From NCBI RefSeq assembly GCF_022846255.1, contig NZ_AP025682.1: a stretch of DNA of 64,000 nt; one strand, written 5' to 3'. Positions 1 to 28,559 of the stretch are shown one piece after another. How positions within the stretch are numbered: the stretch's first letter is position 1; the number at the start of each line of letters is the position of its first letter. This DNA comes from Escherichia coli. Its GTDB lineage: Bacteria; Pseudomonadota; Gammaproteobacteria; Enterobacterales; Enterobacteriaceae. The translations under genes and the position numbers were made by a program. Under the pieces are notes generated by a model. That model searched no databases. It was not told the DNA's origin and was given only the letters and a program-made list of their open reading frames with translations.

Positions 1-918
1 CTCCACGTGCCAGTGGTTTCGGATTGCTGTGGCGAACTTCTCTGCGGTTAAATCAGCAGAACTGATATAATATCTGACCGTCATTTCTGGCTATTTCTTT
101 TGTTCTGCTATTATGGACCGAAAGGAGACTGCCACGCATAATTTCTTCAGTCCTTTCCATTCAAACGTGAAATCAATAAGTTCATCAGGGACATCGCAAA
201 CAATATGAAGACGGATTTCTTCTCTGCCGTGACTTTTTTCACTAATTGCGTAACTGTCATGCTCTGGATTATTCAATTCTTTCAGCGGAAATTTTTCCTC
301 GAAGGCTTTATTTAGCCGCCCCTGGTTTCCTTTTACAGCGAATAAATAATCACCTCCCTGTTTTTGTATCTTCTCTGCAATATCTTTCTGGCAACCCATC
401 GCATCAGTTGTGATGATTTTTCCTTTAATATCCAGCATGTTAAGAAGTTCAGGGATAGCTGTAATTTCATTGGATTTCTCATCCGTCCTGATCTGTCCGA
501 TGACCAGACTGTGCATTGTTGAGAACGCACTAATGACATGAATCGCTCCCCTGCGGCGACTCTTGTCATAAGAATGTCGGAGCGTTTTTCCATCAATTGC
601 AATAACGTCTTTATCATCTGAAGAATGGCAGTCACGCATCCAGTTAATAAAGCACTCGTGAAATTTTGCAGGACTGATACAGGATACAACTCTGGCAATG
701 GTATCGTGAACAGGAATACCATTTTCAAAATCACCATATTGCTTCAAAAAATCGAGATGTGTTTCCCCAAAATCCTCTATATCTTCCCAGCCTTCTGCAC
801 CAGAAATAACGGCACAAATAGTCAACAGTAGAATATCCGATAATTTATGTTCCACTTTCCAGGCTTGTCTGTAATCGGGGATAATAGAAATATGTTCCAT
901 CAATTTTTTAAGTACCAT
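1..918 (-). mobile_element. ISAs1-family (H-repeat-associated) transposase gene, disrupted: in-frame TAG at 91-93, homologous reading frame continues to the window edge
   Basis: 275-aa [29 protein letters not shown]... matches the N-terminal three-quarters of E. coli H-repeat/ISAs1 transposases. Reverse-complement of 1-90 continues in frame as [30 protein letters not shown] after the stop. Confidence 0.7.
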
Positions 919-1147
919 TTTGTTCTCCTTAATTATGTAAGGAGTATTTGATCATGTATAAGCAATAAAAAACAGCTTCAGGTAATGAGGAATATCTCAA
1001 TTTTTAAACATAAAATGCGAATTATTTAGTACAAAAAAGCAGCGTTACGTGATCTTTCCCTGACTGTGTAGGAAAACAGGTTTCCAAGCCCTTCCGAACC
1101 ATTCATGCCTGCAAACAAAAGCAGCTGCGGCGGCACCGCACTACCAC

Positions 1148-1468
1148 TTACTGTGACGTTATGCGCCCCGGACCACCGGCAGCAAGCGACGCCGCCGCAT
1201 CCTGAACTGCACCAGCCATATCCGAGATCCCTGCTGCTGCAGCGGCAGCCTGCGCAGCAGCTACTGCTGCTTTAACCAGACCTGACGGTTCCGGCAACGC
1301 ACCAAACAGGTCCGCCGCTGCCTGTTCTGCCATCTCCTCGGCGGCACCAGATACATCGGTTACGGCTGAACCTGTGCTCATACCGCCACTTTCGCCAGCT
1401 ATTGGTGGTGTGGTGATGACGGGTCCACCGTTTCCAGCTGGTTTGTTACCCGTAGATACAAAACTCAT
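1148..1468 (-). CDS. hypothetical small Ala/Gly-rich protein (106 aa), no recognisable domain
   Basis: ORF with an AGGA-containing putative RBS upstream of the ATG; low-complexity A/G-rich translation; GC-rich relative to AT-rich flanks; lies just downstream of a putative immunity gene. Confidence 0.3.
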
Positions 1469-1492
1469 GATATTTATTCCTTTAATATCGGA

Positions 1493-1864
1493 TTAGAATT
1501 TAGCGCCCGGCTGCCAGAAAAAATAAGAAATAACCCGCCACTGTCCATCTTTATAATGAAAAAAACATGTCAGATTTAAATCCCCCCGCAAATGCCAAAA
1601 CATTTCTTTGATGGGAATATTTCTGAATTCAGTATTCGTTGAGCGATAGGTGTTTTCAATTTCTATATAATACTCACCGACAAATTTATAACGAGGCTTT
1701 ATAAATTCATACGCTGGCTGACCATAGTTATTTAATAGAACATTCTCTTCAACTCCATTATACACACCACTCGCATTCAGATAAGCATGCCCAGGAATAT
1801 CAGACATGCTATTTTTCGCCCCACCCACTATCAAAAAAATTATCACAGCGTATATTAGTTTCAT
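1493..1864 (-). CDS. putative periplasmic immunity protein (signal peptide), partner of the upstream HExxH protein
   Basis: N-terminal hydrophobic signal-like segment MKLIYAVIIFLIVGGAKN; start overlaps the stop of the upstream gene by 4 nt (translational coupling); no recognised domain. Confidence 0.4.
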   Translation of the reverse strand: MKLIYAVIIFLIVGGAKNSMSDIPGHAYLNASGVYNGVEENVLLNNYGQPAYEFIKPRYKFVGEYYIEIENTYRSTNTEFRNIPIKEMFWHLRGDLNLTCFFHYKDGQWRVISYFFWQPGAKF

Positions 1865-2601
1865 TTTTTTACGCTTTTCACAAAAAAATTAGAACCCGGA
1901 ACCATTCTATTTAACCGCTCAATGACATTTCTCATATAACGAGAGCGCAGTTCCATACCAATATTCATTAACGCACTGGCGTCCCCGGAGAATGGTGTAG
2001 TTGCTTTATCTGCATCATCACTATAGTATTCATCAGCAAGATATCCAATAATATGCCCAAGCTCGTGAGACAGCCCTATTTGCTCATGGCAAACTTTTGA
2101 TGAGCCAAGACATTTAGCTGCTGCAACTATATCTTTAGAGTCAAGTTCAACGTATCGACTATTCCAGACAATGGAACTCTGTCGAAAACTATTTGGATCA
2201 TCATTATCAATTTTAAACACCACCACATCCCAATACCCATGACGATCAGTCTGAATTATTTCTATTGAGAAAGATAAATCCTTACCATTAAACTTACTGG
2301 CAAACTCAGACTTCCCAGAAACGGATAAAAAAATCTTATTATTCCATGTTTGATTAATGACAAAAATAACTTTCCCATGAAAGGCATTTTTCTCCAAATC
2401 TGTCCAGTCAGTTTTTGCATCCCATCTTTTTATCCAATTATATTTCCATCTCAGCAACAATGAGATTGCACCATTTTCACGGTCAATTCTTAAATCTCCC
2501 CAGGCATCATTGTCCCTGATATATCGTTTATCCAGCATTAAGTCGTCATAAGCATCGTATGCCTGCTGAATAGCTTCATCATGAGAGTCACCCATGTTCA
2601 C
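1861..2601 (-). CDS. putative zinc-metallopeptidase-like protein (HExxH motif), candidate T6SS effector
   Basis: 246-aa ORF with strong RBS (AAGGAGG) and motif SHELGHIIGYLADEY; no signal peptide; followed by an overlapping signal-peptide ORF; located in the effector-rich tail of the T6SS island. Confidence 0.4.
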   Translation of the reverse strand: MNMGDSHDEAIQQAYDAYDDLMLDKRYIRDNDAWGDLRIDRENGAISLLLRWKYNWIKRWDAKTDWTDLEKNAFHGKVIFVINQTWNNKIFLSVSGKSEFASKFNGKDLSFSIEIIQTDRHGYWDVVVFKIDNDDPNSFRQSSIVWNSRYVELDSKDIVAAAKCLGSSKVCHEQIGLSHELGHIIGYLADEYYSDDADKATTPFSGDASALMNIGMELRSRYMRNVIERLNRMVPGSNFFVKSVKK

Positions 2602-2801
2602 CTCCTTATATTGCTATATATCCAATAAACCTGAAGATGCTTGCTTACCCACCAACGCAGACGGGACCAAGGGTAGCCTGAAGTCAACAGATAGCAGTCA
2701 ACTTGAAGTTCATGGGGATATTTGTTTCCCCATCTACACGTTTATCGTCATATTTTTGTATAGCTATTCTCAGCATTCGTGGGTAGATTATTTTTTTCCA
2801 A

Positions 2802-2906
2802 CCGCAGCGCATCCACATACCGCCCCTCGCTGTTCTGCTGCCACAACCAGCCCTGCCCCTGCTGCGCCTGCGTTAACATTTTTGCTAGCCAGCACGGTCA
2901 CGGCAG
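2802..2906 (-). repeat. degenerate ~105-bp copy of the 3' end of tagF (direct repeat of 3902-4007)
   Basis: Read by eye: ccgcagcgcatccacataccgcccctcgctgttctgctgccacaaccagccctgcccctgctgcgcctgcg... aligns with 3902-4007 at roughly 90% identity; the copy lacks the tagF stop context and sits between two effector/immunity modules. Confidence 0.8.
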
Positions 2907-2924
2907 GCAATTCCATGACAGGTA

Positions 2925-3398
2925 CTACTCATCCGTACAACCCAGCCCCCGGCGCTGAACCACTTCACTGGCAAACGTAGCTCCGGTTTTTTTCATTATT
3001 CCTTTTTGTATTTTTTGCAGCGCGGGAAATGAGATTCTCCTGCATGAATCCTCTTCCCATATATCACCAGTTACAGGACTAACTGAAAATAGTCCCCACA
3101 CATCTGTCGCTCCGGCGGAAGGAGAATCATAACCTACCCCAAAACTAAAATACCCAGGATGATACAGGTTACCTTTTTTATCTTTCAGAGAACCGTCAAG
3201 AAAAAACCCAGACAATTCCACATTATATTTTTCATTTTTTAGTGAAAAAACCAATAATGCCTGCGCCTGTATTTCAGTAAGACCTGACTGGTTAACAGTC
3301 GTTAGATCAAACCGCGGCACATTCCTGATAAGAATTTCAGCACAACAATTCACGGACACGACCATGAAAAGCAATACTGATATTAATTTACAGGACAT
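2925..3398 (-). CDS. putative periplasmic immunity protein (signal peptide) for the upstream GH73-like protein
   Basis: N-terminal signal-like segment MSCKLISVLLFMVVSVNCCA; overlaps the upstream gene by 16 nt; no recognised domain. Confidence 0.4.
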   Translation of the reverse strand: MSCKLISVLLFMVVSVNCCAEILIRNVPRFDLTTVNQSGLTEIQAQALLVFSLKNEKYNVELSGFFLDGSLKDKKGNLYHPGYFSFGVGYDSPSAGATDVWGLFSVSPVTGDIWEEDSCRRISFPALQKIQKGIMKKTGATFASEVVQRRGLGCTDE

Positions 3399-3853
3399 GT
3401 TATTCTCCGCTTAACCATATTAATCACCCACACTAACTCACTAGCATAACCGGTATGGCCGCCATTACTGTTTTTACCTGAATTAAAACCAGAATCAATC
3501 AATGCCTGCGCAAATTGCTCCGGAGATTTTTTATTTCTGACCGCATTACCAAATCGGATTGCAAAGGACTTTCCGCTAGTTGAAAAAAAGGTATAAGTGG
3601 CAACCCACACTTGATTACTCCCCAGCGGGTGAACCTGTCCTGACTGTAAAGGTGCCGGACCATGCATGGAAAAGTAGTTATTGTATTCTGTCGCGATTCT
3701 ACCCTGCCCGTAAAAGGACTCCTTTGCAGCAAGCCCCAGGATATTTTCCACAGGCACATCAAGTTGCTTAGCGATTAATTCACATTCTTTCAGATATTGC
3801 TGTACAAACCTGACTGCACCAGTGTTATTACAGGCTTTATCATAAGACCCCAT
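3383..3853 (-). CDS. GH73-like (FlgJ-type) N-acetylglucosaminidase-like protein, candidate peptidoglycan-targeting T6SS effector
   Basis: 156 aa, no signal peptide, RBS AAGGAG; motif LGLAAKESFYGQG...YNNYFSMHG resembles the GH73 catalytic region (AQAALESGWG...NNLFGIK) recalled from memory; immediately downstream of tagF. Confidence 0.45.
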   Translation of the reverse strand: MGSYDKACNNTGAVRFVQQYLKECELIAKQLDVPVENILGLAAKESFYGQGRIATEYNNYFSMHGPAPLQSGQVHPLGSNQVWVATYTFFSTSGKSFAIRFGNAVRNKKSPEQFAQALIDSGFNSGKNSNGGHTGYASELVWVINMVKRRITCPVN

Positions 3854-3880
3854 GATTCACTACTCCTTGTCTGATTATTT

Positions 3881-4651
3881 TTAATGCGGCCGGATATCCA
3901 GCCGCAACGCATCCACATACCGCCCCTCGCTGTTCTGCTGCCAGAACCAGCCCTGCCCCTGCTGCGCCTGCGTCAGCATTTTGTCCGGCCAGCCCGGCCA
4001 CGGCAGGTGGCGCACACCGGGCAGTTCCACTACCGGCACGTCCGGCAGGCCGGTGAGTTCCCGGCTACGCTGCGGTACACGTCGTAAGCCGCGTAGCCAC
4101 TGCGCCCAGCGCGGCCCCGGTCGCCACATCGCCCAGAGCTGGTCTGTCTGCTCCGCCAGTCGACCGCAGCGTTCTGTCTGTGGTGAGACATGAGCTGCCG
4201 TCAACTGCGCCAGCCAGTACAGCCAGCCCTGTGTGTCATCCAGGCTCTCTTCCAGCCATTCCCGCCCGACACGCTGGTAAATCACCAGTGGCCACGGCCT
4301 GCCCGTACTGTCACGCGAGGCGGTCAGGACCCCGGTCAGCCACTCATCGCGCCCGCCAATGGGGAGAAATCCCGGCGACAGCACAAAACTCCACGGCAAT
4401 GGGTGGTGCTCCGGTAGTGCCGTTTTCTCACGTGGTGACAGGTGCATCCAGCCGTCATTTGTTCCGGCCTTCGCAGCATCCGTTCCTTCCGGCAGAACAA
4501 TATGCCGTCCCTGTCCCAGCCACGTTTGCTGGTTCAGCCACGCCTGCCACACCTGCCCTTCGTTCGCGCTCACTCGCCAGCGCACATAGTCCCGCTGGTC
4601 CGGCAGTCTGCCGAACATCGCCGGGGCCGATATCTCTGCCCGGCGCATCAC
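3881..4651 (-). CDS. tagF: T6SS-associated protein TagF (ImpM family)
   Basis: N-terminal FGRLPDQRDYVRW matches the TagF signature (FGKLPxxGDFVxR); W-rich, GC-rich ORF downstream of the tssM/tae4 block. True start may be the internal Met of AMFGRLP. Confidence 0.6.
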   Translation of the reverse strand: MMRRAEISAPAMFGRLPDQRDYVRWRVSANEGQVWQAWLNQQTWLGQGRHIVLPEGTDAAKAGTNDGWMHLSPREKTALPEHHPLPWSFVLSPGFLPIGGRDEWLTGVLTASRDSTGRPWPLVIYQRVGREWLEESLDDTQGWLYWLAQLTAAHVSPQTERCGRLAEQTDQLWAMWRPGPRWAQWLRGLRRVPQRSRELTGLPDVPVVELPGVRHLPWPGWPDKMLTQAQQGQGWFWQQNSEGRYVDALRLDIRPH

Positions 4652-4836
4652 AACGTCCTTACCGGACAGGTGAAGTTTTTCAGCAATTCCCGGTAATACA
4701 GAACATAATTCTTCATTTCAATAATAAAGTCAGATATCAGGATTAATTTTCTTCCACAGGAATCAGAGCATTTATAATAAAATCGCTCAGGCATCCCCCC
4801 AACAAAGAGAACAGGAATCAGCTTCCAATAAAATTG

Positions 4837-5313
4837 TTAATTCAGTTCCCAGAACCAGATTTCCTTGCAGCTAAAATAGCAATGTGAATGACATATAGCA
4901 CCTGTGGTAGAAGGCTCAATAAGATCTATATGACCGCCACCGTAACCCGTAATTTTCCAGAAAAAGACCACTCCTCTTTTATTACTGGTGTCTGTTTTAA
5001 ATTTTTCTGAGTCACACCAGATAACTGGTCTTCCAAAAACATCAGCTCGGGAAAGCTGATCTGCCAGTAATTTCGCACCGGTTTCTATTTTCTTCCCTTT
5101 CCAGTCACCACTTTTGATCGTCAGTCGCCCGTTAAAGCTGACGCCTGATTTAATCAGCGCCAGACTCATACGTGTGGCACAGGTATTTACATAACCAGCA
5201 TTTTGCTGTTGCAGTGCTTCATAGTTATAACCCACTTCACTGTACAAAACATCACCATCAATCTGAACTGATGAGTAATGGTTTTTTTTAAGTGTGAAAA
5301 ATGAAGGTTTCAT
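4837..5313 (-). CDS. tae4: Tae4-family peptidoglycan amidase effector
   Basis: 158 aa; motif NTCATRMSLALIKSG matches the Tae4 catalytic Cys region (NACPIRMSYVLN) and GGGHIDL the His region, by recall of Salmonella/Enterobacter Tae4; no signal peptide; start overlaps the stop of the upstream signal-peptide gene. Confidence 0.65.
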   Translation of the reverse strand: MKPSFFTLKKNHYSSVQIDGDVLYSEVGYNYEALQQQNAGYVNTCATRMSLALIKSGVSFNGRLTIKSGDWKGKKIETGAKLLADQLSRADVFGRPVIWCDSEKFKTDTSNKRGVVFFWKITGYGGGHIDLIEPSTTGAICHSHCYFSCKEIWFWELN

Positions 5314-6005
5314 TTATTATTTCCTTTATCACAGGAGTGTTTACTTAGTGCCTCAATAATAATATTTGCAGCCCGTTCATTCAGTTTATCTGACGTTTTT
5401 TTTCTGAAATACCAGTAAATAATCTCATCCAGTGTAACTGTTTTAATCGTTTTATAATCGCACCATGTTTTTCTTTCCGTGGCATCTTCTATACCCAAAA
5501 GATAGATTTTCGCATTAAGCCTATCCTGCCTGTTATCTGACTGCCAGAAGCGGAAAAAATCATCTCCGTTCAGATCGAACGCGCCAGAGGTCAGGTGTGA
5601 AACAGATGAATGCCGGGGAGATTTTTTTTCCGGTGATGCCATATCCGGGCAGGGAAACAGCCTGACCATCGCTTGTTCAATCAGAGTTGAAGCTCGCATA
5701 TTCATATCGTTAACCGACTGCTGATTAAGATATGTCAGTACCGATGAATAAAGTTCTATTTCATTAATCTTATTATATCCACACCAGGTTTTACTTTCTG
5801 TCGCATCACTCACACCAAGGACATACATCAGAACATTTTCTTTTTCCTGTGACGTTCCACGAGCATAAAATGACAAAAATTCCTGCGCACTGAGATTAAT
5901 ATAATCGGGGTCAATAGTTCCTGTGTTTTTTCTGATATCAGCAAAAACATTTCCTGACATGGCATATAACAAAAAAATAATAAAAAAACGCGTATATTGT
6001 TGCAT
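5310..6005 (-). CDS. tai4: Tai4-like periplasmic immunity protein, internally tandem-duplicated (two homologous domains)
   Basis: Signal peptide MQQYTRFFIIFLLYAMSGNVFA; the two halves are visibly homologous (…VLMYVLGVSDATESKTWCGYNKI… versus …KIYLLGIEDATERKTWCDYKTI…); 4-nt overlap with tae4. Confidence 0.5.
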   Translation of the reverse strand: MQQYTRFFIIFLLYAMSGNVFADIRKNTGTIDPDYINLSAQEFLSFYARGTSQEKENVLMYVLGVSDATESKTWCGYNKINEIELYSSVLTYLNQQSVNDMNMRASTLIEQAMVRLFPCPDMASPEKKSPRHSSVSHLTSGAFDLNGDDFFRFWQSDNRQDRLNAKIYLLGIEDATERKTWCDYKTIKTVTLDEIIYWYFRKKTSDKLNERAANIIIEALSKHSCDKGNNK

Positions 6006-6251
6006 ATCATGCTTCCTGAATCACGGTAGTAGGATGGTCGCTATAACGTCGGTTTAAGAAAGTTTATAGTTTTGTTGCGTCGTTGCCCTGCCATCTCAGT
6101 ATATAAGTGACATTAATGGTGCCTTTTTGCTCACCTGGTGTAACGGCCTGTTTTAGCATACAACTCCACGTCAAGACATCCGTGAATGCAGCCTTTAGCA
6201 TAGTCACATGGGTCCGGTAGTCTGCCAACGATACTGCCGCCGCCCGGCGTA

Positions 6252-9200
6252 TCACAGCGCTCGCTCCGGGCAGGCGAAGCGTTGTAATAGTCCGCGATCC
6301 ACTGGGTCAAAATCCCGTCCGGCGGTGATTTCCAGTATCACCCGCCGCCCGTCAAAGCTGTACTCCACCTGCTGTGTTCCCCGTACCGCCGTTTCTTGCG
6401 CTTTTCCCGCATCCAGCAGGTGAAACAGCGCCCACGGTCCATTAGTCAGCAGCGTCGAGGTGTCCTGGCGGATGCGCGGGCTGGCGGTTATTTCCGCCAT
6501 TGAGCCGTTGCGCGGACCCGGCCAGTTCACTTTCAGCGGCCTGACCGGGCCGTGAGCGTAACGCAGTACCTGGCCGTCAATGTCAATCACCAGTTCGGTG
6601 ATGGCCGGGTCCATATCCACGACGCGGACCTGCATCGCCCATGAGAACTTTTTCCCTCCGTCGCCGTTAAAAAACACGCTGCGGATCTGTTTCGCCTCCT
6701 GAAACGGCGTCAGGTCTGGACCCTGTAAGGTCATGTTGCCTTCGGTCGGTTTGTAGCGCCACGGGTTGCTGGCGGTATCCGCCAGTGGGGCCAGTTGCTT
6801 CGTCCAGAAGGCATCCAGCACGCCGCCGCTGGCAAAGATACGGTTAAAATCGTCCGCGCTGACCTCCTGCGGGCTGTCGGTGAAGGGGTAGCGCCCGTCG
6901 ATGGCGTCGCGGCACTCATCACCGATCACCGCCTCCATCTGCGCGTTCAGCACTTCACCGGTGCCGGCGTTGATTTTTCGCGTTCCCTGCTGCGTGAGAT
7001 CCAGCAGAATATTTTTCAGCGGCGCGGGCAGTTTTGCCGCCTCCAGTTGCAGTTTATCCGCCGCAGAAATGCGCCCCGGCAGAGTGCTCGCAGCCAGCGC
7101 ACTGTCGGCAATGGTGAGCTGGGTGTAGTACTCATTGAGCATCGTCAGCAGCGAATTTAATTGCGGCACGCCGCCGCCCTGCCCGCTGTCCGTCTGCCCG
7201 GAAACCACTTCCCGCAGGGCGGCGAAACGGTCATCCACCAGTGATTTTTCCAGCCGCTCTTCCGGGTGAATGTCCTGCAACAGCTTCGCCGTCTGCACCG
7301 CTTTTCCCGCATTGCCGGAGAGCCGGTCCTGCGCGCGCTGGGCCATCTGCTTTTGTCTGGCCTGCGCATTCAGCGGCGGCACCAGCGTGGTCTGCTCCAC
7401 CACCGCTTTACTCAGGCGCATCAGCGGGGAATCCGGCGAGGCCAGAGTACGCAGCACCTGAAGGTCATACGCTAGTCCAGGGCTACCGTCCTCCCCGGCG
7501 CTGTTGATGCTGTGAATGCTTGCCAGAAAATCCTGCCATCGGCGAGCATATTCAGCCAGGTACAGACGACGTACCTCACGGGTAACCGGGAGTTCCTGCC
7601 CCGGCAACTGGCTCATCACAATATCAGTCGTTTTTTTTTGCGCACTTTCCCGGCCCATCACCCAGGCGTCGTCCGCTGATGCGGCGGCGACAAACTCCGA
7701 CAGCCGTTTGTCGAACAGTTCCCGGTAGCCTTCGCGGGTGAAGATGCCGGGCACGCCCCTGTCCAGCGGCGCGCCATCCGTGCGGACAAAAACTGTTCCC
7801 GCATCCGCGCCCACAGCGCGAACCAGCGAAAACTCCTGCGGTGCTTCGCTCTCCATGGAAGCCAGGGCTCGAGTGTAGATACGCTCAGTGCTGGTATGGC
7901 CGTCAAGGAAGGCCCGCGCCTGGCGGATCAGCCCCTCATCTTTTTCCCAGGGCGAATGCACCACGCGGCTGCCGTCAAACAGGGCGTCAATATGCTCCAG
8001 CACGGCTGCGCGACCGCCAAACTCCGCTACGCTGTCGCGGTTGTCCAGATCGTTCAGCACCCAGGCGTGGATCTCCGCCGCGTTGTATTTGTCCTCGTGG
8101 TCCTTATCGAGGTTCAGCAGCAGATAAACATGCAGGGCGTCATAGGCGGCTTTGCTGTCCTGACGCGCAATCGCATCTGAAAGCACGTATTCCATTCGTT
8201 TCACCAGCGGAGGGAGCAGTAGCTGGTCCAGCAGGCGGTCATACAGGGATGCGACACTCTCCATCACCGGCGGGACGCTGTAAAGACCATAACGCCAGGC
8301 CAGCGGCGGCGAGTCCGGGTCCAGCCCCGGCCAGGCAGAGAGCGCCCGCGCCTGGTTCAGCAGGGCCGGAACAGGCTGCATAGCAGGTTTTCCGGTATAG
8401 GCTTTGACATCACCATCCAGTTGGGTCGTCCGGCTGGCGATTTCATTCAGATAACCGCTGTTACCCTGCTGGCTACCCTGCATTCCCTGCCACAACCAGA
8501 AAGCCAGCGCCAATACCAGCAGATGCCCGCCGGTACGCAGCAGGCGATAACGCCAGGCCCATTGAAGATTCGGCTCCACCAGGTGCGCTTCGCGGAAGAT
8601 AAACTGCGTCAGTAGATCGTGCAGGAAATAGCTGCGGTTGCCGTCCGGCAGGGTATGGGATGGGGAATCCGCCTTCCCTTTGATCGCCCGGACAAAACGC
8701 TGCCAGATGCCCGTCTGATCGGCCACCGCGTCTGCCTGCGCCTGCGCGGCACTGGTGAAAAATACGCCGCGCAGGGTGTTGTTAAGCTGGGTAGCATCAA
8801 ATTTTGAATCGAGGAAAATCTGTTCAATAGCTTCCAGCAGCGGCGCACCCAGCGCGGCAAATTCACGCGGGAAGCGGTAGAGCCGCTGACGGCTTTTAAG
8901 GTCATATTCTTCCTGCAACCGGGTATCCAGCCCCTGATCCAGCCGCTGTGTCAGGTTTGCCAGTTCCCGGCCACAGAGCGCATGCAGCGACTGCGGATCG
9001 CTGGCGTGACGCCTGCGGCTGTAAGGCAGGGTGAAGCCCCAGACCTGGGCTCGCAGGTGACTGGTCAACCCACGGAAATACTCCGTAAAGCCCGGCAGCA
9101 GATCCATCTTGGTGACAACCAGATAGACCGGAAAACGAATGCCCAGCGTCTCCCGCAGTTCCGCCAGCCGCGCACGCAGAGCTGCACAGGCAGCCAGCCG

Positions 9201-10118
9201 TTCCGCCGGGGACTGCGCGGTCAGATCCGCCACGTTCAGCGTCAGGATCACGCCGTTGAGCGGTGCGCCGGGGCGGTGTTTACGCAGCAGTCCCAGAAAC
9301 CCCTGCCACTCCCCGGCGTTGCGCTGGGTCGCGCTGATTTCGCCACCGTCATCGTGGCGAGCATAGCGCCCGGCGGTGTCAATAAGCACTGCTTCGTTGG
9401 TAAACCACCAGTCGCAGTGCAGCGTGCCGCCGCCCGGCACGGTGAGAATATGCGCGGTTTGCTCCATCTGCTCCGCCAGCGGAAACTGTAGCCCGGTGTT
9501 AAGCAGCGCGGTGGTTTTACCATCGCCGGGGCTGCCGATAACCATAAACCACGGCAGCTCGTACAGAAAACGCTTTCCTTCCAGGACTTTTCGCCAGCCA
9601 GGAAGATCCACACGCAGTTGTTTCAGTTGCCGGATGGCGCGGTTGACAATATGGCTGACGGTACGCAGGTCGGCTTTAATTTCCCCCTCCACCGGTACGT
9701 CTTCCCCACGCGGATGCAGGAAACGGCGCAGCAGTTGTTCATCCAGACGCAGCGCCCGCCACAGCCGGTACAGGCCATACAGCGCATAAGTCAGCAGGAT
9801 CAGACCGATAAGCGTCAGACGCAGCCACAGCGGCGCAAATGGATGAACATCACCGAGGGACAGCAGGGGTGAAACAAAACCGATGACCAGGCACAGAACC
9901 GTCACGCCAATGATGCTCATCGACCAGTTAACCAGCCACAGTGCGAGGAACATCAGTAACAGAACGATGGTGACTACCCGACTTCCCACAGACGCGAGCG
10001 GATGCACGGTGTCAAACGCCACCAGCGGCCCGATAAACCAGACCAGCAGCGCCAGTACCGCCACGCCGACAACAGCCAGCGCGCGGCGGGAAAACAGCAG
10101 ACTGAGAAATTTTTGCAT
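6252..10118 (-). CDS. tssM: T6SS membrane core protein TssM (IcmF family)
   Basis: 1288 aa; N-terminal transmembrane segments, Walker A GSPGDGKTT, large periplasmic C-terminal region; typical IcmF architecture. Confidence 0.9.
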   Translation of the reverse strand: MQKFLSLLFSRRALAVVGVAVLALLVWFIGPLVAFDTVHPLASVGSRVVTIVLLLMFLALWLVNWSMSIIGVTVLCLVIGFVSPLLSLGDVHPFAPLWLRLTLIGLILLTYALYGLYRLWRALRLDEQLLRRFLHPRGEDVPVEGEIKADLRTVSHIVNRAIRQLKQLRVDLPGWRKVLEGKRFLYELPWFMVIGSPGDGKTTALLNTGLQFPLAEQMEQTAHILTVPGGGTLHCDWWFTNEAVLIDTAGRYARHDDGGEISATQRNAGEWQGFLGLLRKHRPGAPLNGVILTLNVADLTAQSPAERLAACAALRARLAELRETLGIRFPVYLVVTKMDLLPGFTEYFRGLTSHLRAQVWGFTLPYSRRRHASDPQSLHALCGRELANLTQRLDQGLDTRLQEEYDLKSRQRLYRFPREFAALGAPLLEAIEQIFLDSKFDATQLNNTLRGVFFTSAAQAQADAVADQTGIWQRFVRAIKGKADSPSHTLPDGNRSYFLHDLLTQFIFREAHLVEPNLQWAWRYRLLRTGGHLLVLALAFWLWQGMQGSQQGNSGYLNEIASRTTQLDGDVKAYTGKPAMQPVPALLNQARALSAWPGLDPDSPPLAWRYGLYSVPPVMESVASLYDRLLDQLLLPPLVKRMEYVLSDAIARQDSKAAYDALHVYLLLNLDKDHEDKYNAAEIHAWVLNDLDNRDSVAEFGGRAAVLEHIDALFDGSRVVHSPWEKDEGLIRQARAFLDGHTSTERIYTRALASMESEAPQEFSLVRAVGADAGTVFVRTDGAPLDRGVPGIFTREGYRELFDKRLSEFVAAASADDAWVMGRESAQKKTTDIVMSQLPGQELPVTREVRRLYLAEYARRWQDFLASIHSINSAGEDGSPGLAYDLQVLRTLASPDSPLMRLSKAVVEQTTLVPPLNAQARQKQMAQRAQDRLSGNAGKAVQTAKLLQDIHPEERLEKSLVDDRFAALREVVSGQTDSGQGGGVPQLNSLLTMLNEYYTQLTIADSALAASTLPGRISAADKLQLEAAKLPAPLKNILLDLTQQGTRKINAGTGEVLNAQMEAVIGDECRDAIDGRYPFTDSPQEVSADDFNRIFASGGVLDAFWTKQLAPLADTASNPWRYKPTEGNMTLQGPDLTPFQEAKQIRSVFFNGDGGKKFSWAMQVRVVDMDPAITELVIDIDGQVLRYAHGPVRPLKVNWPGPRNGSMAEITASPRIRQDTSTLLTNGPWALFHLLDAGKAQETAVRGTQQVEYSFDGRRVILEITAGRDFDPVDRGLLQRFACPERAL

Positions 10119-10445: not shown

Positions 10446-10901
10446 TCAAAATTCTCTGGATAGAATAATATAGCCATTGAATCTTACGGAACACTCATTT
10501 TCATTAATAAGGCCGGATGCAATAAAAACATCTTTCCCTCTGTCATTGTTAATATAGGTATATTTTGCCACAATAGACTTGGCATGATTTTCATAGTAGC
10601 TATCAAAATACGATTTTTCATCTAACATTGCCTTCTTATTTCTGGCTTTGTCCTTCTCATAATCAATCTTAGCCAGAGACTCTGCATAAAACTTAGACAC
10701 AGGAGAAACATCAAGAACTTCTACCCTTGTTTTATCTCTTAAAATAGTAGAAGAATTTATATTCAAATCACTTTTCATTGCATCAAATAACGACAACTCT
10801 ATTGAGGCTCCAACCGTAGCGCAACCATCATTTTGTGCATATGAAATTGCAGGTATGCCAGCTAACAGGCAGATTATTACCTTGAACATATTAGTCCTCA
10901 A
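10446..10901 (-). CDS. putative periplasmic immunity protein (Tldi-like) for the upstream L,D-transpeptidase-like effector
   Basis: 151 aa with signal peptide MRTNMFKVIICLLAGIPAISYA; AT-rich; overlaps the effector gene end by 11 nt. Confidence 0.45.
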   Translation of the reverse strand: MRTNMFKVIICLLAGIPAISYAQNDGCATVGASIELSLFDAMKSDLNINSSTILRDKTRVEVLDVSPVSKFYAESLAKIDYEKDKARNKKAMLDEKSYFDSYYENHAKSIVAKYTYINNDRGKDVFIASGLINENECSVRFNGYIILSREF

Positions 10902-11259
10902 CCACTAATATTTTATCAGTACTGGCAGCAATAACCTTGCGATAAGGTAAATCCAGAATTATACAGCCATCAGAGGCTTCTCCTGGATGGGCTGAACTCT
11001 CTCCGTGTATCATGAAACCGTCACGCCCGCACATTTGATTTTCGGGGTAAGGCGTGAGCCTCATCGTCCATGCTCTTGTTCTGGCATGAAAAAATGCAAG
11101 TCCAATTGTATATGTACCTCTTGGCAATGGTCCCTTATCTCTTACACACTCATTAACAGAGTCATCTTTAAAACCCGGTCTGCCAGAATATCTGGCATTG
11201 AACTGATAGCTACCATTTAAATAAAATGAACGTGCATTAATTTTGTATACCCAAGGCAT
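10891..11259 (-). CDS. Tlde1-like (DUF2778, L,D-transpeptidase-fold) T6SS effector
   Basis: 122 aa; motifs KGPLPRGTYTIG and FMIHGESSAHPGEASDGCIIL match the His-x(14-17)-S-x-G-C signature described for Tlde1/YkuD-like effectors; no signal peptide. Confidence 0.55.
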   Translation of the reverse strand: MPWVYKINARSFYLNGSYQFNARYSGRPGFKDDSVNECVRDKGPLPRGTYTIGLAFFHARTRAWTMRLTPYPENQMCGRDGFMIHGESSAHPGEASDGCIILDLPYRKVIAASTDKILVVED

Positions 11260-11350: not shown

Positions 11351-12667
11351 TCACTCCACCACCAGAATTTCCACCCGACGGTTCTGCGCCCGTCCGGTTT
11401 TAGTGCGGTTATCGGTCACCGGTACGGTATCTCCTTTCCCGACAACCCGGATCCGGCGGGCCGGAATACCATCGGACGTCAGCAGTGAAGCCACTTCCGC
11501 CGCCCGTTTTTCCGACAATACCTGGTTGGACGGGAATTCAGCGGAGTGGATCGGCTGGCTGTCCGTGTGGCCGGTCACCGTCACCGCGCCCCCCACACGC
11601 GCAATCTCACGCGCGGCCTTGTCAATCACCGGGCGCAGCGCATCATTCACGGTTTTCTGCCCCGGTATAAACATCGTATCGCCACGAAAAATTACACGGC
11701 TGTGATGGTCATCTTCCTCCACCGTCAGCAGGCCACGGGCGATTTCGTTCGCCAGCAGGATTTTCAACCGCAGTTTATGCACCGGAACGGGTGGCGGAGG
11801 AAGATTTTTACCAATGGCGTCGATACGCTGTTGTACGGTTTCGGTGGCGAGGTTCATCCGGTGGCTGTAAAGGCCAAACAGCGTCAGCATCACCAGCAGG
11901 GCGATTCCGGCGCTCAGCCAGACCGGCACCCGGCGCATCCGCCGCATTCGCCCACTGACGGCACCGGCAAAACCCGGCGAGAGCGTCGGCGTGATCGGAT
12001 CGCGACGCTGGACCAGTTGAGTCAGCAGTTGCTGGCGGATATCGTCCAGTTGTTTACGCCCGTCAGGCCGTACACTGTAGCGGCCTTCAAAACCCAGTCC
12101 CAGAATGTGGTAAATGATTTCCAGTACATCGCTGTGCTCCTGGAAGCTGGCGGCCAGACGCCCGATTATCTGAAACAGCTTGATGCCGCCTTCACTTTCG
12201 CCATGAAAAGTCACCAGCAGGCTCTTCCCGGCCCAGACACCGCGTCGCCCCCAGACGGTGTTGTTGGCAGCTTCATCCAGCGCCGTGCACACGCAGTAAC
12301 GTACCGCCAGCACATGTTCGCGGCGCAGGTTTGCCTGGTCGCACAGCGTCTGATACCGGCGGACTTCACGCTCCAGTAGGGCGCGATAATGTTCGACAAA
12401 ACCAGGGGAAAGTTCACGGGGCATTTGCGCCAGCGCGCATAACAGAGGGCTGGCCGCCGCCAGAAGAGGATTCACAGCAGCAGTGATCTCAGCCAAGCGG
12501 AGCTTCAAATCTGGCCCGTCTTCAACCACCATTTTTATATCTTCCCTGCGAAGGCTGTCCTGGACGAGCGTATCGTAACCGTCATTATCAGGCGACCTTG
12601 TTCCCCTCATTGAAGGCTGTAATTGCAGGGTATTCACCGCAGGTTGCGTCAGAATATCGTCGGTCAT
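11351..12667 (-). CDS. tssL: TssL (DotU family) with C-terminal OmpA-like peptidoglycan-binding domain
   Basis: 438 aa; DotU-like N-terminal region, one transmembrane segment (VWLSAGIALLVMLTLFGLY), C-terminal OmpA/MotB-like motif GHTDSQ...NRRVEILV. Confidence 0.8.
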   Translation of the reverse strand: MTDDILTQPAVNTLQLQPSMRGTRSPDNDGYDTLVQDSLRREDIKMVVEDGPDLKLRLAEITAAVNPLLAAASPLLCALAQMPRELSPGFVEHYRALLEREVRRYQTLCDQANLRREHVLAVRYCVCTALDEAANNTVWGRRGVWAGKSLLVTFHGESEGGIKLFQIIGRLAASFQEHSDVLEIIYHILGLGFEGRYSVRPDGRKQLDDIRQQLLTQLVQRRDPITPTLSPGFAGAVSGRMRRMRRVPVWLSAGIALLVMLTLFGLYSHRMNLATETVQQRIDAIGKNLPPPPVPVHKLRLKILLANEIARGLLTVEEDDHHSRVIFRGDTMFIPGQKTVNDALRPVIDKAAREIARVGGAVTVTGHTDSQPIHSAEFPSNQVLSEKRAAEVASLLTSDGIPARRIRVVGKGDTVPVTDNRTKTGRAQNRRVEILVVE

Positions 12668-14007
12668 TTATCGCGAACTCCCCACAGCTCCAGCTCCAGC
12701 CCTGGAAACTCTCCGGCGGTATGCATTGCCATGCCACCATAGCGGGCGATATGTTCCCACAACACGCCGTCGCGGCGGATGTCGTAATAGATGTAACCGG
12801 ACTGGAACGGGATCTGACGCGGTGGCACTGGCAGCACCTGTAGAACAAGACCAGGAAGGTGCGAGCGAATCAGTTCCGGCAGGCGTTCTGATGGCCCTAT
12901 TTTGGTCTGAGCCGAAAAATGTTGTAGTAAGGTGTCGGCGGACATCTGTGCCTTCACCGCCAATACTAACGAGCTGAAATCTGACAGTTCGGTAGGTTCA
13001 ACCACCGCATTGAGAATACCGTAAGTTCCCTCTTCCAGAGGGATTCGCTGCGCCCCACGTATTAGCACAGCATTCAGCAGATACTGAACCTCGTCCACCA
13101 CCGATTTCAGCCCGGCATAGGGCGTCAGGTGCTTATATTCTTTATATTCTTCCGGACGACGTGTTTGCGGACGCACGTAGGTAGAGAGTTCTCCGGCCAG
13201 TGCGCAGAGGTTACGATAGAGTACTTCAGGCGATAGCGGCGTTTTCGACATATGGATCAATAAGGGGCCGAAACGATTAAGAACTTGCAGAAGCAGGTAA
13301 TCCGACACTTCCGCCGCTTCATGACCGTGTTTGTCGCTCCCCGTCAATCGTTCCGCCAGCGAATCTGCACGCATTTTTATCAGATCGTTAATCCACGACA
13401 GCCAGGTACATATCAGCGTACTGGCCTGGTAGTTCGCCACTGGCGGGATCAACTCTTTGTCTATATCGACCCGACCATCGGGATGCAGCGCCGTGATGCG
13501 CGTCAGCGGCAGGCCGATCCACGCGTCTGTCACCGCCTTTTCCGGTAACAGTCGCAAGCGCAGGTGGCTAAGTTGCAGCAGTTGCGCGCCTCGCCCCAGC
13601 GAATTGGCATCACGGATTTCACTTTCATGTACCGAAAAACGTGCCAGTGATTCAGGGTTATTGTCGAAACTGGTTTCTTCACTGTTCGGCGTACGTATTG
13701 GCACAGCCAGATAAATCAACTGGTTAAGATGTTCTGGAAGGATGGTCAGAGGCGGCGGGAGTGGTGTATGACCCGGCGCATTAAAAGGTGTACCGTCAGC
13801 AAATACCCCGGAAGCCTTCGTAAGTACCAGTTTTCCGATGTTCAGCGCCTCACTACCAATACCATACTCATTGAAGCCCCAGTAAAAAGGTGAAAGAGGC
13901 AAACTGCGATAATGAATGACATGTTCCAGATAGCGTTCCTGCTGCTGAAACATCTGTGGCAACAAAAATTGTCCTTCACTCCAGACCACCCGGTTATTCC
14001 AACTCAT
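12664..14007 (-). CDS. tssK: T6SS baseplate protein TssK
   Basis: 447 aa; N-terminus MSWNNRVVWSEGQFLLPQMFQQQERY typical of TssK; 4-nt overlap with tssL. Confidence 0.85.
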   Translation of the reverse strand: MSWNNRVVWSEGQFLLPQMFQQQERYLEHVIHYRSLPLSPFYWGFNEYGIGSEALNIGKLVLTKASGVFADGTPFNAPGHTPLPPPLTILPEHLNQLIYLAVPIRTPNSEETSFDNNPESLARFSVHESEIRDANSLGRGAQLLQLSHLRLRLLPEKAVTDAWIGLPLTRITALHPDGRVDIDKELIPPVANYQASTLICTWLSWINDLIKMRADSLAERLTGSDKHGHEAAEVSDYLLLQVLNRFGPLLIHMSKTPLSPEVLYRNLCALAGELSTYVRPQTRRPEEYKEYKHLTPYAGLKSVVDEVQYLLNAVLIRGAQRIPLEEGTYGILNAVVEPTELSDFSSLVLAVKAQMSADTLLQHFSAQTKIGPSERLPELIRSHLPGLVLQVLPVPPRQIPFQSGYIYYDIRRDGVLWEHIARYGGMAMHTAGEFPGLELELWGVRDK

Positions 14008-14010
14008 AAT

Positions 14011-14565
14011 TTACTCATCCCGTTCTTTAATCACTATGGCGCTTTGCTCTATGCCAGCATCCAGTTCGACTTTTTTCTTTGGCATAAAGCGGCTGTACCA
14101 ACTTTTTTCCGGTGGATCAGGAATTTTATATGTAGCCCGCCAGACCGATTTTCCCAGATTGCGGTATCCGGCGAGGATCCCCAGCGTGGTAGTTTCCTTA
14201 TTGAGGGCGCGGCGTAATTTTTTCTCCTCGCCCGGACGCAGGATAAAGCTGTCGCGGTGGAGTAAATCATCGGCAAGAACAGCCTTGTCATTGTCCTGAA
14301 GGGACCACCAGTCCGCCGCCGTGAAAGCTGCATCAATTTTCAGTTCATAAACGCGTATCTCTATGGGCGCGGCTTTTTTCTGATTGTCAGGATTCACCTT
14401 ATCGGAAGCCTTAATCACCAGATCGAGTCTTTGTGACATCAGGTCCGGCACGTCGTCGCTGTCAATGCTGCACCCGGAAAGCAGGAAGACAAAAGACAAA
14501 GCTACCGCACATAACCACCCACCGGGGTTACGCCATTTATTCACTGTAATTTCCTTTAAAATCAA
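14011..14565 (-). CDS. tssJ: T6SS outer-membrane lipoprotein TssJ
   Basis: 184 aa; lipobox LLSGC after a signal-like segment; size and position (between hcp and tssK) typical of TssJ/SciN. Confidence 0.75.
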   Translation of the reverse strand: MILKEITVNKWRNPGGWLCAVALSFVFLLSGCSIDSDDVPDLMSQRLDLVIKASDKVNPDNQKKAAPIEIRVYELKIDAAFTAADWWSLQDNDKAVLADDLLHRDSFILRPGEEKKLRRALNKETTTLGILAGYRNLGKSVWRATYKIPDPPEKSWYSRFMPKKKVELDAGIEQSAIVIKERDE

Positions 14566-15276: not shown

Positions 15277-15729
15277 CTATTTACATGTCACAGATACCGA
15301 TGACTCTCCTGGTACCCGCTGCCCCGGCAAAGAAGATGCCTGGCACTGTGTCGCCAATGCAGGGACCGGTTGTGATAACCAAACCTGTCCATGGTTATAA
15401 ATACAGGAAACCCAGTAACGTTCACTATTCTGATTACTGGCCATTGTGGTATCCCATATTTGCCTGGTTTCACCCTTTATTGTCTCTGTCTCTGGTTTTA
15501 GATCCACCCGATTTTCAGGTTTTCCCTGCGACATCCCTACCCCGTCCAACCACAGACGGGGTTCATAGCGGGAAGATCTCTGCCACGATGCAGATATATC
15601 TGGCTCCAGTACTGTTGTTGAGGATTTTATATTGATAAACACGGGGCAACTGACTTCCCACGCAGTAACAAATTGTGAATAAAACAACATAAAACCCAAC
15701 AACAGAGAAAAAATAAAACGTGTCCCCAT
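15277..15729 (-). CDS. secreted Cys-containing protein, putative immunity protein for the upstream small protein
   Basis: 150 aa with signal-like N-terminus MGTRFIFSLLLGFMLFYSQFVTA; AT-rich; directly downstream (13-nt gap) of a 135-aa cytoplasmic-type ORF. Confidence 0.35.
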   Translation of the reverse strand: MGTRFIFSLLLGFMLFYSQFVTAWEVSCPVFINIKSSTTVLEPDISASWQRSSRYEPRLWLDGVGMSQGKPENRVDLKPETETIKGETRQIWDTTMASNQNSERYWVSCIYNHGQVWLSQPVPALATQCQASSLPGQRVPGESSVSVTCK

Positions 15730-15741
15730 TGAATCTATCCT

Positions 15742-16149
15742 CTACTCAATAATATAAAAAGCTTCCGCATTATTACTGGCATCAGGATATGTTCCATCGC
15801 TGCGCATTCCACCTTTTCGGGAAATAGGGCGTGCAGAGACTTTCGTGGTTTTACCTGTCCACTGGTCCATAACATAAATATACTGACTATCCTGTTCCAG
15901 ATAGAAAGCGGCATGCTTATGCTCATTCTGCCTCGAGGGATACTTTCCGTTAACAAAAGTGGCAATTGCTGTTCCTCTGGGGATCGATTTATCCCCAAAA
16001 ACCTTTCGCCCCTGCTTCCAGGCTCCAGTATTCCCCACATGTGCATATACCTGAACTAAGAACACACATTCCTTTCTGTCTCCTGCCCCCGCCATTCCCA
16101 CCATGTCAGTGCCCTGCAATGAATCTACCAGTCCATAAACATATGCCAT
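15742..16149 (-). CDS. hypothetical small protein, candidate Hcp-dependent effector (possible Cys/His hydrolase)
   Basis: 135 aa, no signal peptide; Cys28 and a His cluster (EHKHAAFY) about 50 residues downstream; sits between tssC and hcp, followed by a signal-peptide ORF. No motif confidently recognised. Confidence 0.3.
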   Translation of the reverse strand: MAYVYGLVDSLQGTDMVGMAGAGDRKECVFLVQVYAHVGNTGAWKQGRKVFGDKSIPRGTAIATFVNGKYPSRQNEHKHAAFYLEQDSQYIYVMDQWTGKTTKVSARPISRKGGMRSDGTYPDASNNAEAFYIIE

Positions 16150-28482: not shown

Positions 28483-28559
28483 TGGCGGAACGGACGGGAC
28501 TCGAACCCGCGACCCCCTGCGTGACAGGCAGGTATTCTAACCGACTGAACTACCGCTCC
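28483..28559 (-). tRNA. aspV: tRNA-Asp (GUC)
   Basis: Reverse complement reads GGAGCGGTAGTTCAGTCGGTTAGAATACCTGCCTGTCACGCAGGGGGTCGCGGGTTCGAGTCCCGTCCGTTCCGCCA; adjacent to dnaQ as in E. coli. Confidence 0.92.

What the first reader, a model, noticed from the sequence alone, without database searches (positions are those of the whole stretch)
11351..12667. TssL carries a fused OmpA-like peptidoglycan-binding domain
The C-terminal ~110 residues (…GHTDSQ…NRRVEILV) look like an OmpA/MotB peptidoglycan-binding domain fused to the DotU-like TssL. This is the 'evolved TssL' arrangement; no separate tagL-like gene is seen in the cluster.
Basis: partly seen in the sequence, partly recalled or inferred. 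Interest (0 to 1): 0.3.

Follow-up and report, generated by a model that had tools for sequence, protein, structure and literature searches.

The report
Ordinary long-form TssL cell-wall anchor

Summary
Observation confirmed, interpretation supported, nothing new. Window 11351-12667 (minus strand) is an intact 438-aa tssL. It has a DotU domain (Pfam PF09850, 2e-60), one transmembrane helix (about residues 246-268) and a C-terminal OmpA/MotB-type peptidoglycan-binding domain (PF00691, 6e-17). The NCBIfam model "TssL, long form" (TIGR03350) scores 161.8 bits against a cut-off of 139.8. All six residues linked to cell-wall binding in EAEC TagL are present and invariant in 33 homologues. An AlphaFold model superposes on the solved P. 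aeruginosa T6SS cell-wall anchor (4b62, TM 0.92) and on V. cholerae TssL (4v3i, TM 0.92). No other OmpA-like domain or tagL-like gene occurs in the window. RefSeq already names the identical gene "TssL, long form", and reviews cite Salmonella and P. aeruginosa H1 as examples of "evolved TssL". Context worth knowing: the cluster is a Salmonella SPI-6-type (i3) T6SS at tRNA-Asp (aspV). This tssL is found in only 115 of 5426 complete E. coli genomes. None of the three T6SS loci of EAEC 042 has a long TssL: two have short TssL alone, and Sci-1 has short TssL plus TagL. The window's copy has lost most of vgrG and the Rhs toxin next to an ISEc1 element.

The parts
11351..12667 (-). tssL, long form (438 aa), complete gene including stop codon
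   Evidence: ORF; Pfam DotU+OmpA; NCBIfam TIGR03350 and PRK08126 above cut-off; the 100% identical gene in E. coli 2014C-3338 is annotated 'TssL, long form'
12509..12667 (-). N-terminal cytoplasmic tail (residues 1-53), predicted disordered and the most variable part
   Evidence: pLDDT about 30 in the AF2 model; dN/dS 0.33 against 0.05 for DotU
11861..12469 (-). DotU/TssL domain (Pfam residues 67-269); the helical bundle is residues 54-221
   Evidence: PF09850 2e-60; PDB 4v3i V. cholerae TssL 2.4e-23 by sequence and TM 0.92, rmsd 1.5 A by fold
11864..11932 (-). Single transmembrane helix (residues about 246-268, VPVWLSAGIALLVMLTLFGLYS), preceded by RMRRMRR
   Evidence: The only Kyte-Doolittle 19-residue windows above 1.8; continuous helix 249-287 in the AF2 model; the positive-inside rule puts the N-terminus in the cytoplasm (inference)
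11771..11806 (-). Proline-rich periplasmic hinge (residues 288-299, NLPPPPVPVHKL)
   Evidence: Sequence; low pLDDT at 289-295 between two confident segments
11357..11770 (-). Periplasmic OmpA/MotB-type peptidoglycan-binding domain (residues 300-437)
   Evidence: PF00691 6.2e-17; TIGR03350 8.3e-48; PDB 4b62 TssL1 9.1e-25; Foldseek 4b62 TM 0.92, rmsd 1.6 A, 40% identity and PomB 3wpw TM 0.86
11492..11572 (-). PG (m-DAP) binding motif GHTD...NQVLSEKRAAEV (residues 366-392; D369, N381, L384, S385, R388, A389)
   Evidence: Aligns to TagL D486/N494/L497/S498/R501/A502 (residues defined in PMC8253398); all six invariant in 33 homologues
12664..14007 (-). tssK, immediately upstream and overlapping tssL by 4 nt
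   Evidence: PF05936 4.4e-135; coordinates
14011..14565 (-). tssJ lipoprotein, membrane-complex partner
   Evidence: PF12790 4.5e-36
6252..10118 (-). tssM, membrane-complex partner; separated from tssL by a Tlde1 effector/immunity cassette (10446-11259)
   Evidence: IcmF domains; Tlde1 PF10908

Best explanation
The gene encodes a canonical long-form ('evolved') TssL, the inner-membrane subunit of the TssJ-TssL-TssM membrane complex of a type VI secretion system. The N-terminal DotU helical bundle faces the cytoplasm, where in studied systems it contacts the baseplate and TssM. One helix crosses the inner membrane and continues as a short stalk. A proline-rich hinge then leads to an OmpA/MotB/Pal-type domain, which binds the meso-diaminopimelate stem peptide of peptidoglycan non-covalently through D369 and R388, with N381 and L384 lining the pocket. 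Several copies per complex would pin the static membrane complex to the cell wall so that it withstands sheath contraction. Because the anchor is built into TssL, no TagL-type accessory protein is needed. Shown here: domain identity, topology signals, conservation of the binding residues, fold, gene context and purifying selection. Inferred from homologues: actual PG binding, stoichiometry and the mechanical role.
For: Pfam DotU and OmpA match above cut-offs, as do NCBIfam 'TssL, long form' and the full-length subfamily model. There is a single TM helix with a positive cluster on its N-terminal side. PDB sequence matches are to P. aeruginosa TssL1 periplasmic domain 4b62 (9e-25) and V. cholerae TssL 4v3i (2e-23). 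The AF2 model has confident DotU and alpha/beta domains, superposing on 4b62 (TM 0.92, 1.6 A) and 4v3i (TM 0.92, 1.5 A). All six TagL residues associated with cell-wall binding are identical (PMC8253398) and invariant in 33 homologues at 47-92% identity. dN/dS is 0.14 overall and 0.19 for the OmpA-like domain between two E. coli alleles. The gene sits in tssJ-tssK-tssL order within a complete T6SS core set. Almost all of the top 120 listed homologues (685 in all at E <= 1e-10) carry the same two Pfam domains and many are named 'TssL, long form'. The literature describes this arrangement and its role (PMC10433429; PMC7614798; PMC3953482).
Against: No experiment on this protein or on its E. coli or Salmonella orthologue was found in the searched library, so PG binding is by homology only. 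The cluster in this window has lost most of vgrG and the downstream Rhs toxin, so the machine may not fire unless a VgrG is supplied from elsewhere in the genome. In another E. coli carrier (strain M3) tssM is frameshifted, which shows that these islands decay.
Confidence: 0.9

Rival explanations
1. The periplasmic domain is a regulated, stator-like anchor. Like MotB/PomB, it would be held in a compact, non-binding state and would extend to grip peptidoglycan only once TssL is incorporated into an assembling membrane complex, rather than acting as a constitutive anchor.
For: The domain matches flagellar stator PGB domains as strongly as it matches T6SS ones: PomB 3wpw has the best Foldseek E-value (4.6e-13, TM 0.86), and MotS and MotB rank high. 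NCBIfam MotD and MotB models match residues 300-436. A helical stalk plus a flexible proline hinge precede the domain.
Against: No plug-like segment or conformational switch was detected or tested here. The similarity may only reflect common ancestry of OmpA-like domains with an N-terminal extension. This is a refinement of the main explanation, not a contradiction of it.
Confidence: 0.12
2. The gene is intact but functionally idle: it is part of a decaying T6SS island, so the fused anchor currently does nothing in this strain.
For: Relative to strain 2014C-3338, the window lacks about 7.2 kb containing most of vgrG, a DcrB-like gene and the Rhs toxin, and the deletion abuts an ISEc1 transposase. 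A frameshifted tssM occurs in another carrier.
Against: tssL and the other twelve core genes are full length in the window. The core region is 99.7% identical to that of a strain with intact vgrG, so any loss is recent. E. coli genomes often carry orphan vgrG genes elsewhere, but this could not be checked because only 64 kb is available. dN/dS of 0.14 shows long-term constraint.
Confidence: 0.2
3. The fusion is an artefact (a sequencing frameshift or assembly join of a short tssL and a separate OmpA-family gene), or the protein is really a type IVB IcmH/DotU.
For: The NCBIfam IcmH/DotU model also passes its cut-off (121.7 bits against 50) because the DotU domain is shared.
Against: 114 E. coli genomes carry the same full-length gene. 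Homologues with the same two-domain architecture and length occur across Enterobacteriaceae, Neisseriaceae and Burkholderiales. The full-length model PRK08126 matches end to end. The neighbours are T6SS genes, not Dot/Icm genes.
Confidence: 0.01

Closest known systems
Salmonella enterica SPI-6 T6SS TssL (subtype i3, at tRNA aspV)
   Same: Same architecture. A Salmonella TssL fragment is 86% identical over 71% of the query (P0024). The insertion site is the same (aspV; PMC12288458, PMC2907695), as is the effector set Tae4, Tlde1 and Tge2-like glucosaminidase (PMC12288458). It is cited as an example of evolved TssL (PMC10433429).
   Different: The host species is E. coli. The effector cassettes differ between strains. 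This copy of the island lacks most of vgrG and the Rhs toxin.
Pseudomonas aeruginosa H1-T6SS TssL1 (periplasmic cell-wall anchor, PDB 4B62)
   Same: Best solved relative of the C-terminal domain: E 9.1e-25 over residues 288-436; TM 0.92, rmsd 1.6 A, 40% identity. It has the same GH(T/S)D...N..LS..RA motif with the long beta2-alpha2 loop (alignment). The accessory genes TagJ and TagF are shared with H1-type clusters.
   Different: About 40% identity only. No PpkA, PppA, Fha or TagQRST genes are seen in the window's cluster.
EAEC Sci-1 short TssL + TagL (SciZ)
   Same: Same function split over two proteins. The TagL PGB domain aligns with residues 348-437 (37% identity by BLASTP, E 3e-12) with all six PG-binding residues identical. 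The TssL DotU domain is homologous (E 5e-7).
   Different: In Sci-1, TssL is 217 aa and C-tail anchored with no periplasmic domain, and the anchor is a separate 576-aa polytopic protein encoded immediately downstream. The TagL loop between GHTD and NQ is four residues shorter.
Vibrio cholerae VasF / E. coli aspV-type (T6SS-2) short TssL
   Same: Closest DotU domains: 4v3i at 2.4e-23 with TM 0.92; EAEC 042 aspV TssL is 30% identical over residues 55-285. In 042 it occupies the same chromosomal site.
   Different: These proteins end shortly after the TM helix (251-257 aa) and have no PG-binding domain.
Flagellar stator B subunits MotB / PomB / MotS
   Same: Same overall plan: a single TM helix, a periplasmic linker and an OmpA-like PGB domain. 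Fold matches have TM 0.8-0.86, and NCBIfam MotD and MotB models match residues 300-436.
   Different: The stator subunits have no DotU cytoplasmic domain. There is no evidence here for ion-channel residues or a plug. The genomic context is T6SS, not flagellar.

Membership tests
TssL, long form ('evolved'/'specialized' TssL; NCBIfam TIGR03350 + TIGR03349) | N-terminal DotU/TssL domain | tested here: met
   PF09850 2e-60; TIGR03349 214 bits against a cut-off of 89.95; fold TM 0.92 to 4v3i
TssL, long form ('evolved'/'specialized' TssL; NCBIfam TIGR03350 + TIGR03349) | Single transmembrane helix after the DotU domain, N-in/C-out | tested here: met
   One hydrophobic segment at 246-268 preceded by RMRRMRR; helix 249-287 in the model. 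Orientation is inferred from the positive-inside rule and from homologues (PMC3953482), not measured.
TssL, long form ('evolved'/'specialized' TssL; NCBIfam TIGR03350 + TIGR03349) | C-terminal OmpA/MotB/Pal-type domain on the same polypeptide | tested here: met
   PF00691 62.2 bits against 27.2; TIGR03350 161.8 bits against 139.8; 4b62 TM 0.92
TssL, long form ('evolved'/'specialized' TssL; NCBIfam TIGR03350 + TIGR03349) | Conserved peptidoglycan (DAP) binding residues | tested here: met
   D369, N381, L384, S385, R388 and A389 match TagL D486, N494, L497, S498, R501 and A502 and are invariant in 33 homologues
TssL, long form ('evolved'/'specialized' TssL; NCBIfam TIGR03350 + TIGR03349) | Encoded within a T6SS core cluster next to tssK, tssJ and tssM | tested here: met
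   tssJ-tssK-tssL-(Tlde1 cassette)-tssM, plus tssA, B, C, E, F, G, H and hcp
TssL, long form ('evolved'/'specialized' TssL; NCBIfam TIGR03350 + TIGR03349) | Physical binding to peptidoglycan and requirement for secretion | not testable with these tools
   Needs sacculus pull-down and secretion assays; inferred from TagL (PMC8253398) and from statements in PMC7614798
TagL-dependent anchoring (short TssL + separate TagL/TagN/TagP/TagW) | A separate PG-binding accessory protein encoded in the cluster | tested here: not met
   No other OmpA or PG-binding domain in the cluster ORFs. Six-frame phmmer of the whole window finds only tssL. TssM has only IcmF domains, so it is not TagP-like.
Type IVB IcmH/DotU | Encoded with Dot/Icm genes; short protein without a periplasmic PGB domain | tested here: not met
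   The neighbours are T6SS genes. The protein has an OmpA domain. The NF038228 hit reflects only the shared DotU domain.
SPI-6-type / subtype i3 T6SS cluster (context) | Location at tRNA aspV with Tae4, Tlde1 and Tge2-type effectors and TagJ, TagK and TagF accessories | tested here: met
   tRNA-Asp at 28483-28559; effectors and accessories; SPI-6 description in PMC12288458. No phylogeny of core genes was made, so the subtype assignment is by gene content and closest relatives only.

The most novel reading that the evidence does not exclude
Within E. coli, the long-form TssL would mark a fourth T6SS lineage (SPI-6-like, subtype i3). It lies outside the usual T6SS-1/2/3 scheme, is shared horizontally with Salmonella, Citrobacter and Enterobacter, and competes for the same aspV site as the common T6SS-2. 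The fused anchor would be a simple diagnostic, since none of the three 042 loci has one. The TssL fusion itself would still be ordinary.
Probability: 0.25. Interest if true: 0.25.

Novelty: already known. Interest (0 to 1): 0.07.

Why it matters
It matters little beyond correct annotation. The result confirms that this T6SS carries its own cell-wall anchor and needs no TagL, which is the common situation among T6SSs. The modest added value lies in the context. In E. coli this tssL belongs to a minority SPI-6-like island, found in about 2% of complete genomes, that sits where other strains carry a different T6SS. Here the island has lost its vgrG-rhs module.

Tried and rejected
(1) A distant blastn search with tssL against 5426 E. 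coli genomes, meant to find other tssL types, returned only the same 115 genomes as megablast. Other E. coli tssL genes are too divergent at the DNA level, so I fetched the three T6SS loci of EAEC 042 by coordinates instead (one search failed on a range limit).
(2) A six-frame phmmer scan for a second OmpA-like or DotU domain in the window found nothing below E = 0.2.
(3) The promoter and terminator scan around tssL gave counts at shuffle level: 10 promoter-like sites against 7.1 expected and 6 terminator-like sites against 5.5. The only convincing hairpin follows hcp (14600-14576), so no operon claim is made beyond the tssK/tssL overlap.
(4) A literature search for an i3-type T6SS described in E. 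coli found no clear report. Absence from this library is not proof of novelty.
(5) Considered and rejected: fusion artefact, IcmH/DotU of a type IVB system, and a degenerate non-binding OmpA domain.

Full report
**Observation.** The window holds a 438-aa ORF at exactly 11351-12667 on the minus strand. Its ATG overlaps the stop codon of the upstream gene by 4 nt. Pfam assigns DotU to residues 67-269 (E 2e-60) and OmpA to residues 332-430 (E 6.2e-17, 62.2 bits against a gathering score of 27.2). NCBIfam gives three matches above their curated cut-offs:
- TIGR03349 DotU/TssL: 214 bits against a cut-off of 89.95.
- TIGR03350 "type VI secretion system protein TssL, long form": residues 300-436, 161.8 bits against 139.8.
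- PRK08126, a full-length subfamily model: 652.6 bits against 571.

The only correction is size. The folded periplasmic domain is about 140 residues (300-437), not about 110.

**Anatomy.**
- Hydropathy shows one strong hydrophobic segment, residues about 246-268 (VPVWLSAGIALLVMLTLFGLYS), directly preceded by RMRRMRR. By the positive-inside rule this places the DotU part in the cytoplasm and the OmpA-like part in the periplasm. That topology was determined experimentally for Agrobacterium TssL (PMC3953482).
- An AlphaFold2 model built on 33 homologues gives a disordered tail (1-50), a confident helical bundle (54-221) and a flexible linker (223-247). These are followed by a long helix (249-287) that crosses the membrane and continues as a stalk, a proline-rich hinge (289-295), and a confident alpha/beta domain (300-437).
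- Foldseek against the PDB superposes the C-terminal domain on the P. aeruginosa T6SS cell-wall anchor 4b62 (TM 0.92, rmsd 1.6 A, 40% identity) and on PomB 3wpw (TM 0.86). It superposes the N-terminal domain on V. cholerae TssL 4v3i (TM 0.92, rmsd 1.5 A).
- A sequence search of the PDB gave the same two best relatives: 4b62 at 9.1e-25 and 4v3i at 2.4e-23.

**Is the domain likely to bind peptidoglycan?** The TagL crystal-structure paper (PMC8253398) lists Asp486, Asn494, Leu497 and Arg501 as the DAP-contacting residues, with Ser498 and Ala502 also required for cell-wall binding. I extracted TagL from EAEC 042 (L003:36944-38674) and aligned it. All six positions are identical in the window protein: D369, N381, L384, S385, R388 and A389. 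All six are also invariant across 33 homologues at 47-92% identity. Between the window allele and the commoner E. coli allele (strain M3, 92% DNA identity), dN/dS is 0.14 for the gene, 0.05 for DotU and 0.19 for the OmpA-like domain. None of the 28 substitutions touches a binding residue. Actual binding was not tested and cannot be tested with these tools.

**Surroundings.**
- The gene lies in the order tssJ-tssK-tssL, followed by a Tlde1 effector with a putative immunity gene, then tssM.
- The island also encodes Hcp, TssB, TssC, ClpV/TssH, TssE, TssF, TssG and an ImpA-family TssA. The accessory genes are TagJ, TagK and TagF.
- Effector and immunity genes include Tae4 with a Rap1a/Tai family immunity protein, a glucosaminidase with Tgi2PP, and a BPSL0067-family/STY0301-family pair.
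- The island abuts tRNA-Asp at 28483-28559, next to dnaQ and rnhA.
- No other ORF in the cluster has an OmpA or other PG-binding domain. A six-frame scan of the whole window with the C-terminal domain finds only tssL.

**Comparison with other E. coli T6SS loci.** The window's tssL is 100% identical to a gene in E. coli 2014C-3338 that RefSeq annotates as "TssL, long form". It occurs in only 115 of 5426 complete E. coli genomes, at both near and distant DNA sensitivity. In the reference strain EAEC 042 I located all three T6SS loci:
- The aspV locus holds a VasL/VasI/TagH-type cluster with a 251-aa TssL that has DotU only.
- Sci-1 has a 217-aa "TssL, short form" immediately followed by the 576-aa OmpA-family TagL.
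- Sci-2/aai has a 196-aa DotU protein.

None of these has the fused form. Papers describe the E. coli scheme as three groups, T6SS-1 to T6SS-3 (PMC10711316; PMC10562709). By gene content, insertion site and nearest relatives, the window's cluster instead resembles Salmonella SPI-6. SPI-6 lies at aspV, belongs to subtype i3 and carries Tae4, Tlde1 and Tge2 (PMC12288458; PMC2907695). A Salmonella TssL fragment is 86% identical to the window protein, and Citrobacter and Enterobacter homologues are 75-83% identical.

**What is known.** The arrangement is textbook.
- PMC10433429 defines "evolved TssL" and names the Salmonella enterica T6SS and P. aeruginosa H1 TssL1 as examples.
- PMC8253398 calls it "specialized TssL".
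- Among the 120 best homologues, nearly all carry PF09850 plus PF00691. They span Enterobacteriaceae, Snodgrassella, Burkholderia/Paraburkholderia and Variovorax, and many are already named "TssL, long form" or ImpK.

**Mechanism.** Identity is held with confidence 0.9; the mechanism is inferred from homologues. TssL inserts in the inner membrane with its DotU bundle in the cytoplasm as part of the TssJLM complex. The stalk and hinge present the OmpA-like domain to the sacculus, where D369 and R388 bind the DAP carboxylates. Multiple copies fix the static membrane complex to the wall. Two qualifications remain. The domain could be gated like a flagellar stator, given the strong MotB/PomB similarity. 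The machine may also be idle in this strain, because compared with 2014C-3338 the window lacks about 7.2 kb holding most of vgrG, a DcrB-like gene and the Rhs toxin, next to an ISEc1 element.

**Verdict.** Observation confirmed, interpretation supported, already known, low interest. The only mildly notable points are contextual: a minority SPI-6-like island in E. coli at a site that other strains fill with a different T6SS, and its recent loss of the vgrG-rhs module.

Noticed in passing
window 1-3900: Compared with E. coli 2014C-3338, the island's distal end is rearranged. About 7.2 kb is missing (vgrG from about codon 137, a DcrB-like gene, a 4.1-kb Rhs toxin and its likely immunity gene). 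This leaves a 106-aa VgrG N-terminal remnant ORF (1148-1468, minus strand) abutting an ISEc1/ISAs1-type transposase (91-918). An extra ~1 kb (2908-3896) carries a glucosaminidase effector (3383-3853) and a Tgi2PP immunity gene (2925-3398). No complete E. coli genome covers 80% or more of window 1-6300.
   Followed up: yes
window 1-28560 (whole island): The cluster is a Salmonella SPI-6-like (subtype i3 by gene content) T6SS at tRNA-Asp aspV. Its tssL is present in only 115 of 5426 complete E. coli genomes. In EAEC 042 the same aspV site holds a different, VasL/TagH-type T6SS. I found no paper in the library describing an i3-type T6SS in E. coli, whose T6SSs are usually sorted into three groups.
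   Followed up: partly
window 10446-11259 and 15277-16149; L005 11604-12457 and 16323-17293: Effector/immunity cassettes at fixed slots differ between E. coli carriers. Between tssL and tssM the window has Tlde1 plus a 151-aa ORF with a signal-peptide-like N-terminus, where strain M3 has two unrelated hypothetical genes. Between tssC and hcp the window has a BPSL0067-family/STY0301-family pair, where M3 has Tae4/Tai4. This resembles the variable regions described for SPI-6.
   Followed up: partly
L005 17293-21158 (E. coli M3): tssM is annotated as frameshifted in strain M3, another sign that these islands decay in some E. coli lineages.
   Followed up: no
E. coli IH5, NZ_CP168949.1 5065696-5066624 (hits H15/H40): One genome holds only the middle 71% of tssL (query 294-1222), annotated as icmH/DotU and lying next to pduS. 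This suggests a truncated or rearranged copy outside the usual context.
   Followed up: no
window 26085-26178 (+): ARAGORN calls a 94-nt tRNA-His inside the tssF coding sequence (24419-26302). It is almost certainly a false positive given its length and location.
   Followed up: no
window 12509-12667 (residues 1-53 of TssL): The N-terminal cytoplasmic tail is predicted disordered and evolves faster (dN/dS 0.33; 14 of the 28 substitutions between E. coli alleles). In Agrobacterium the equivalent tail carries the PpkA phosphorylation site that recruits Fha (PMC3953482), but no ppkA, pppA or fha gene is present in this cluster.
   Followed up: partly
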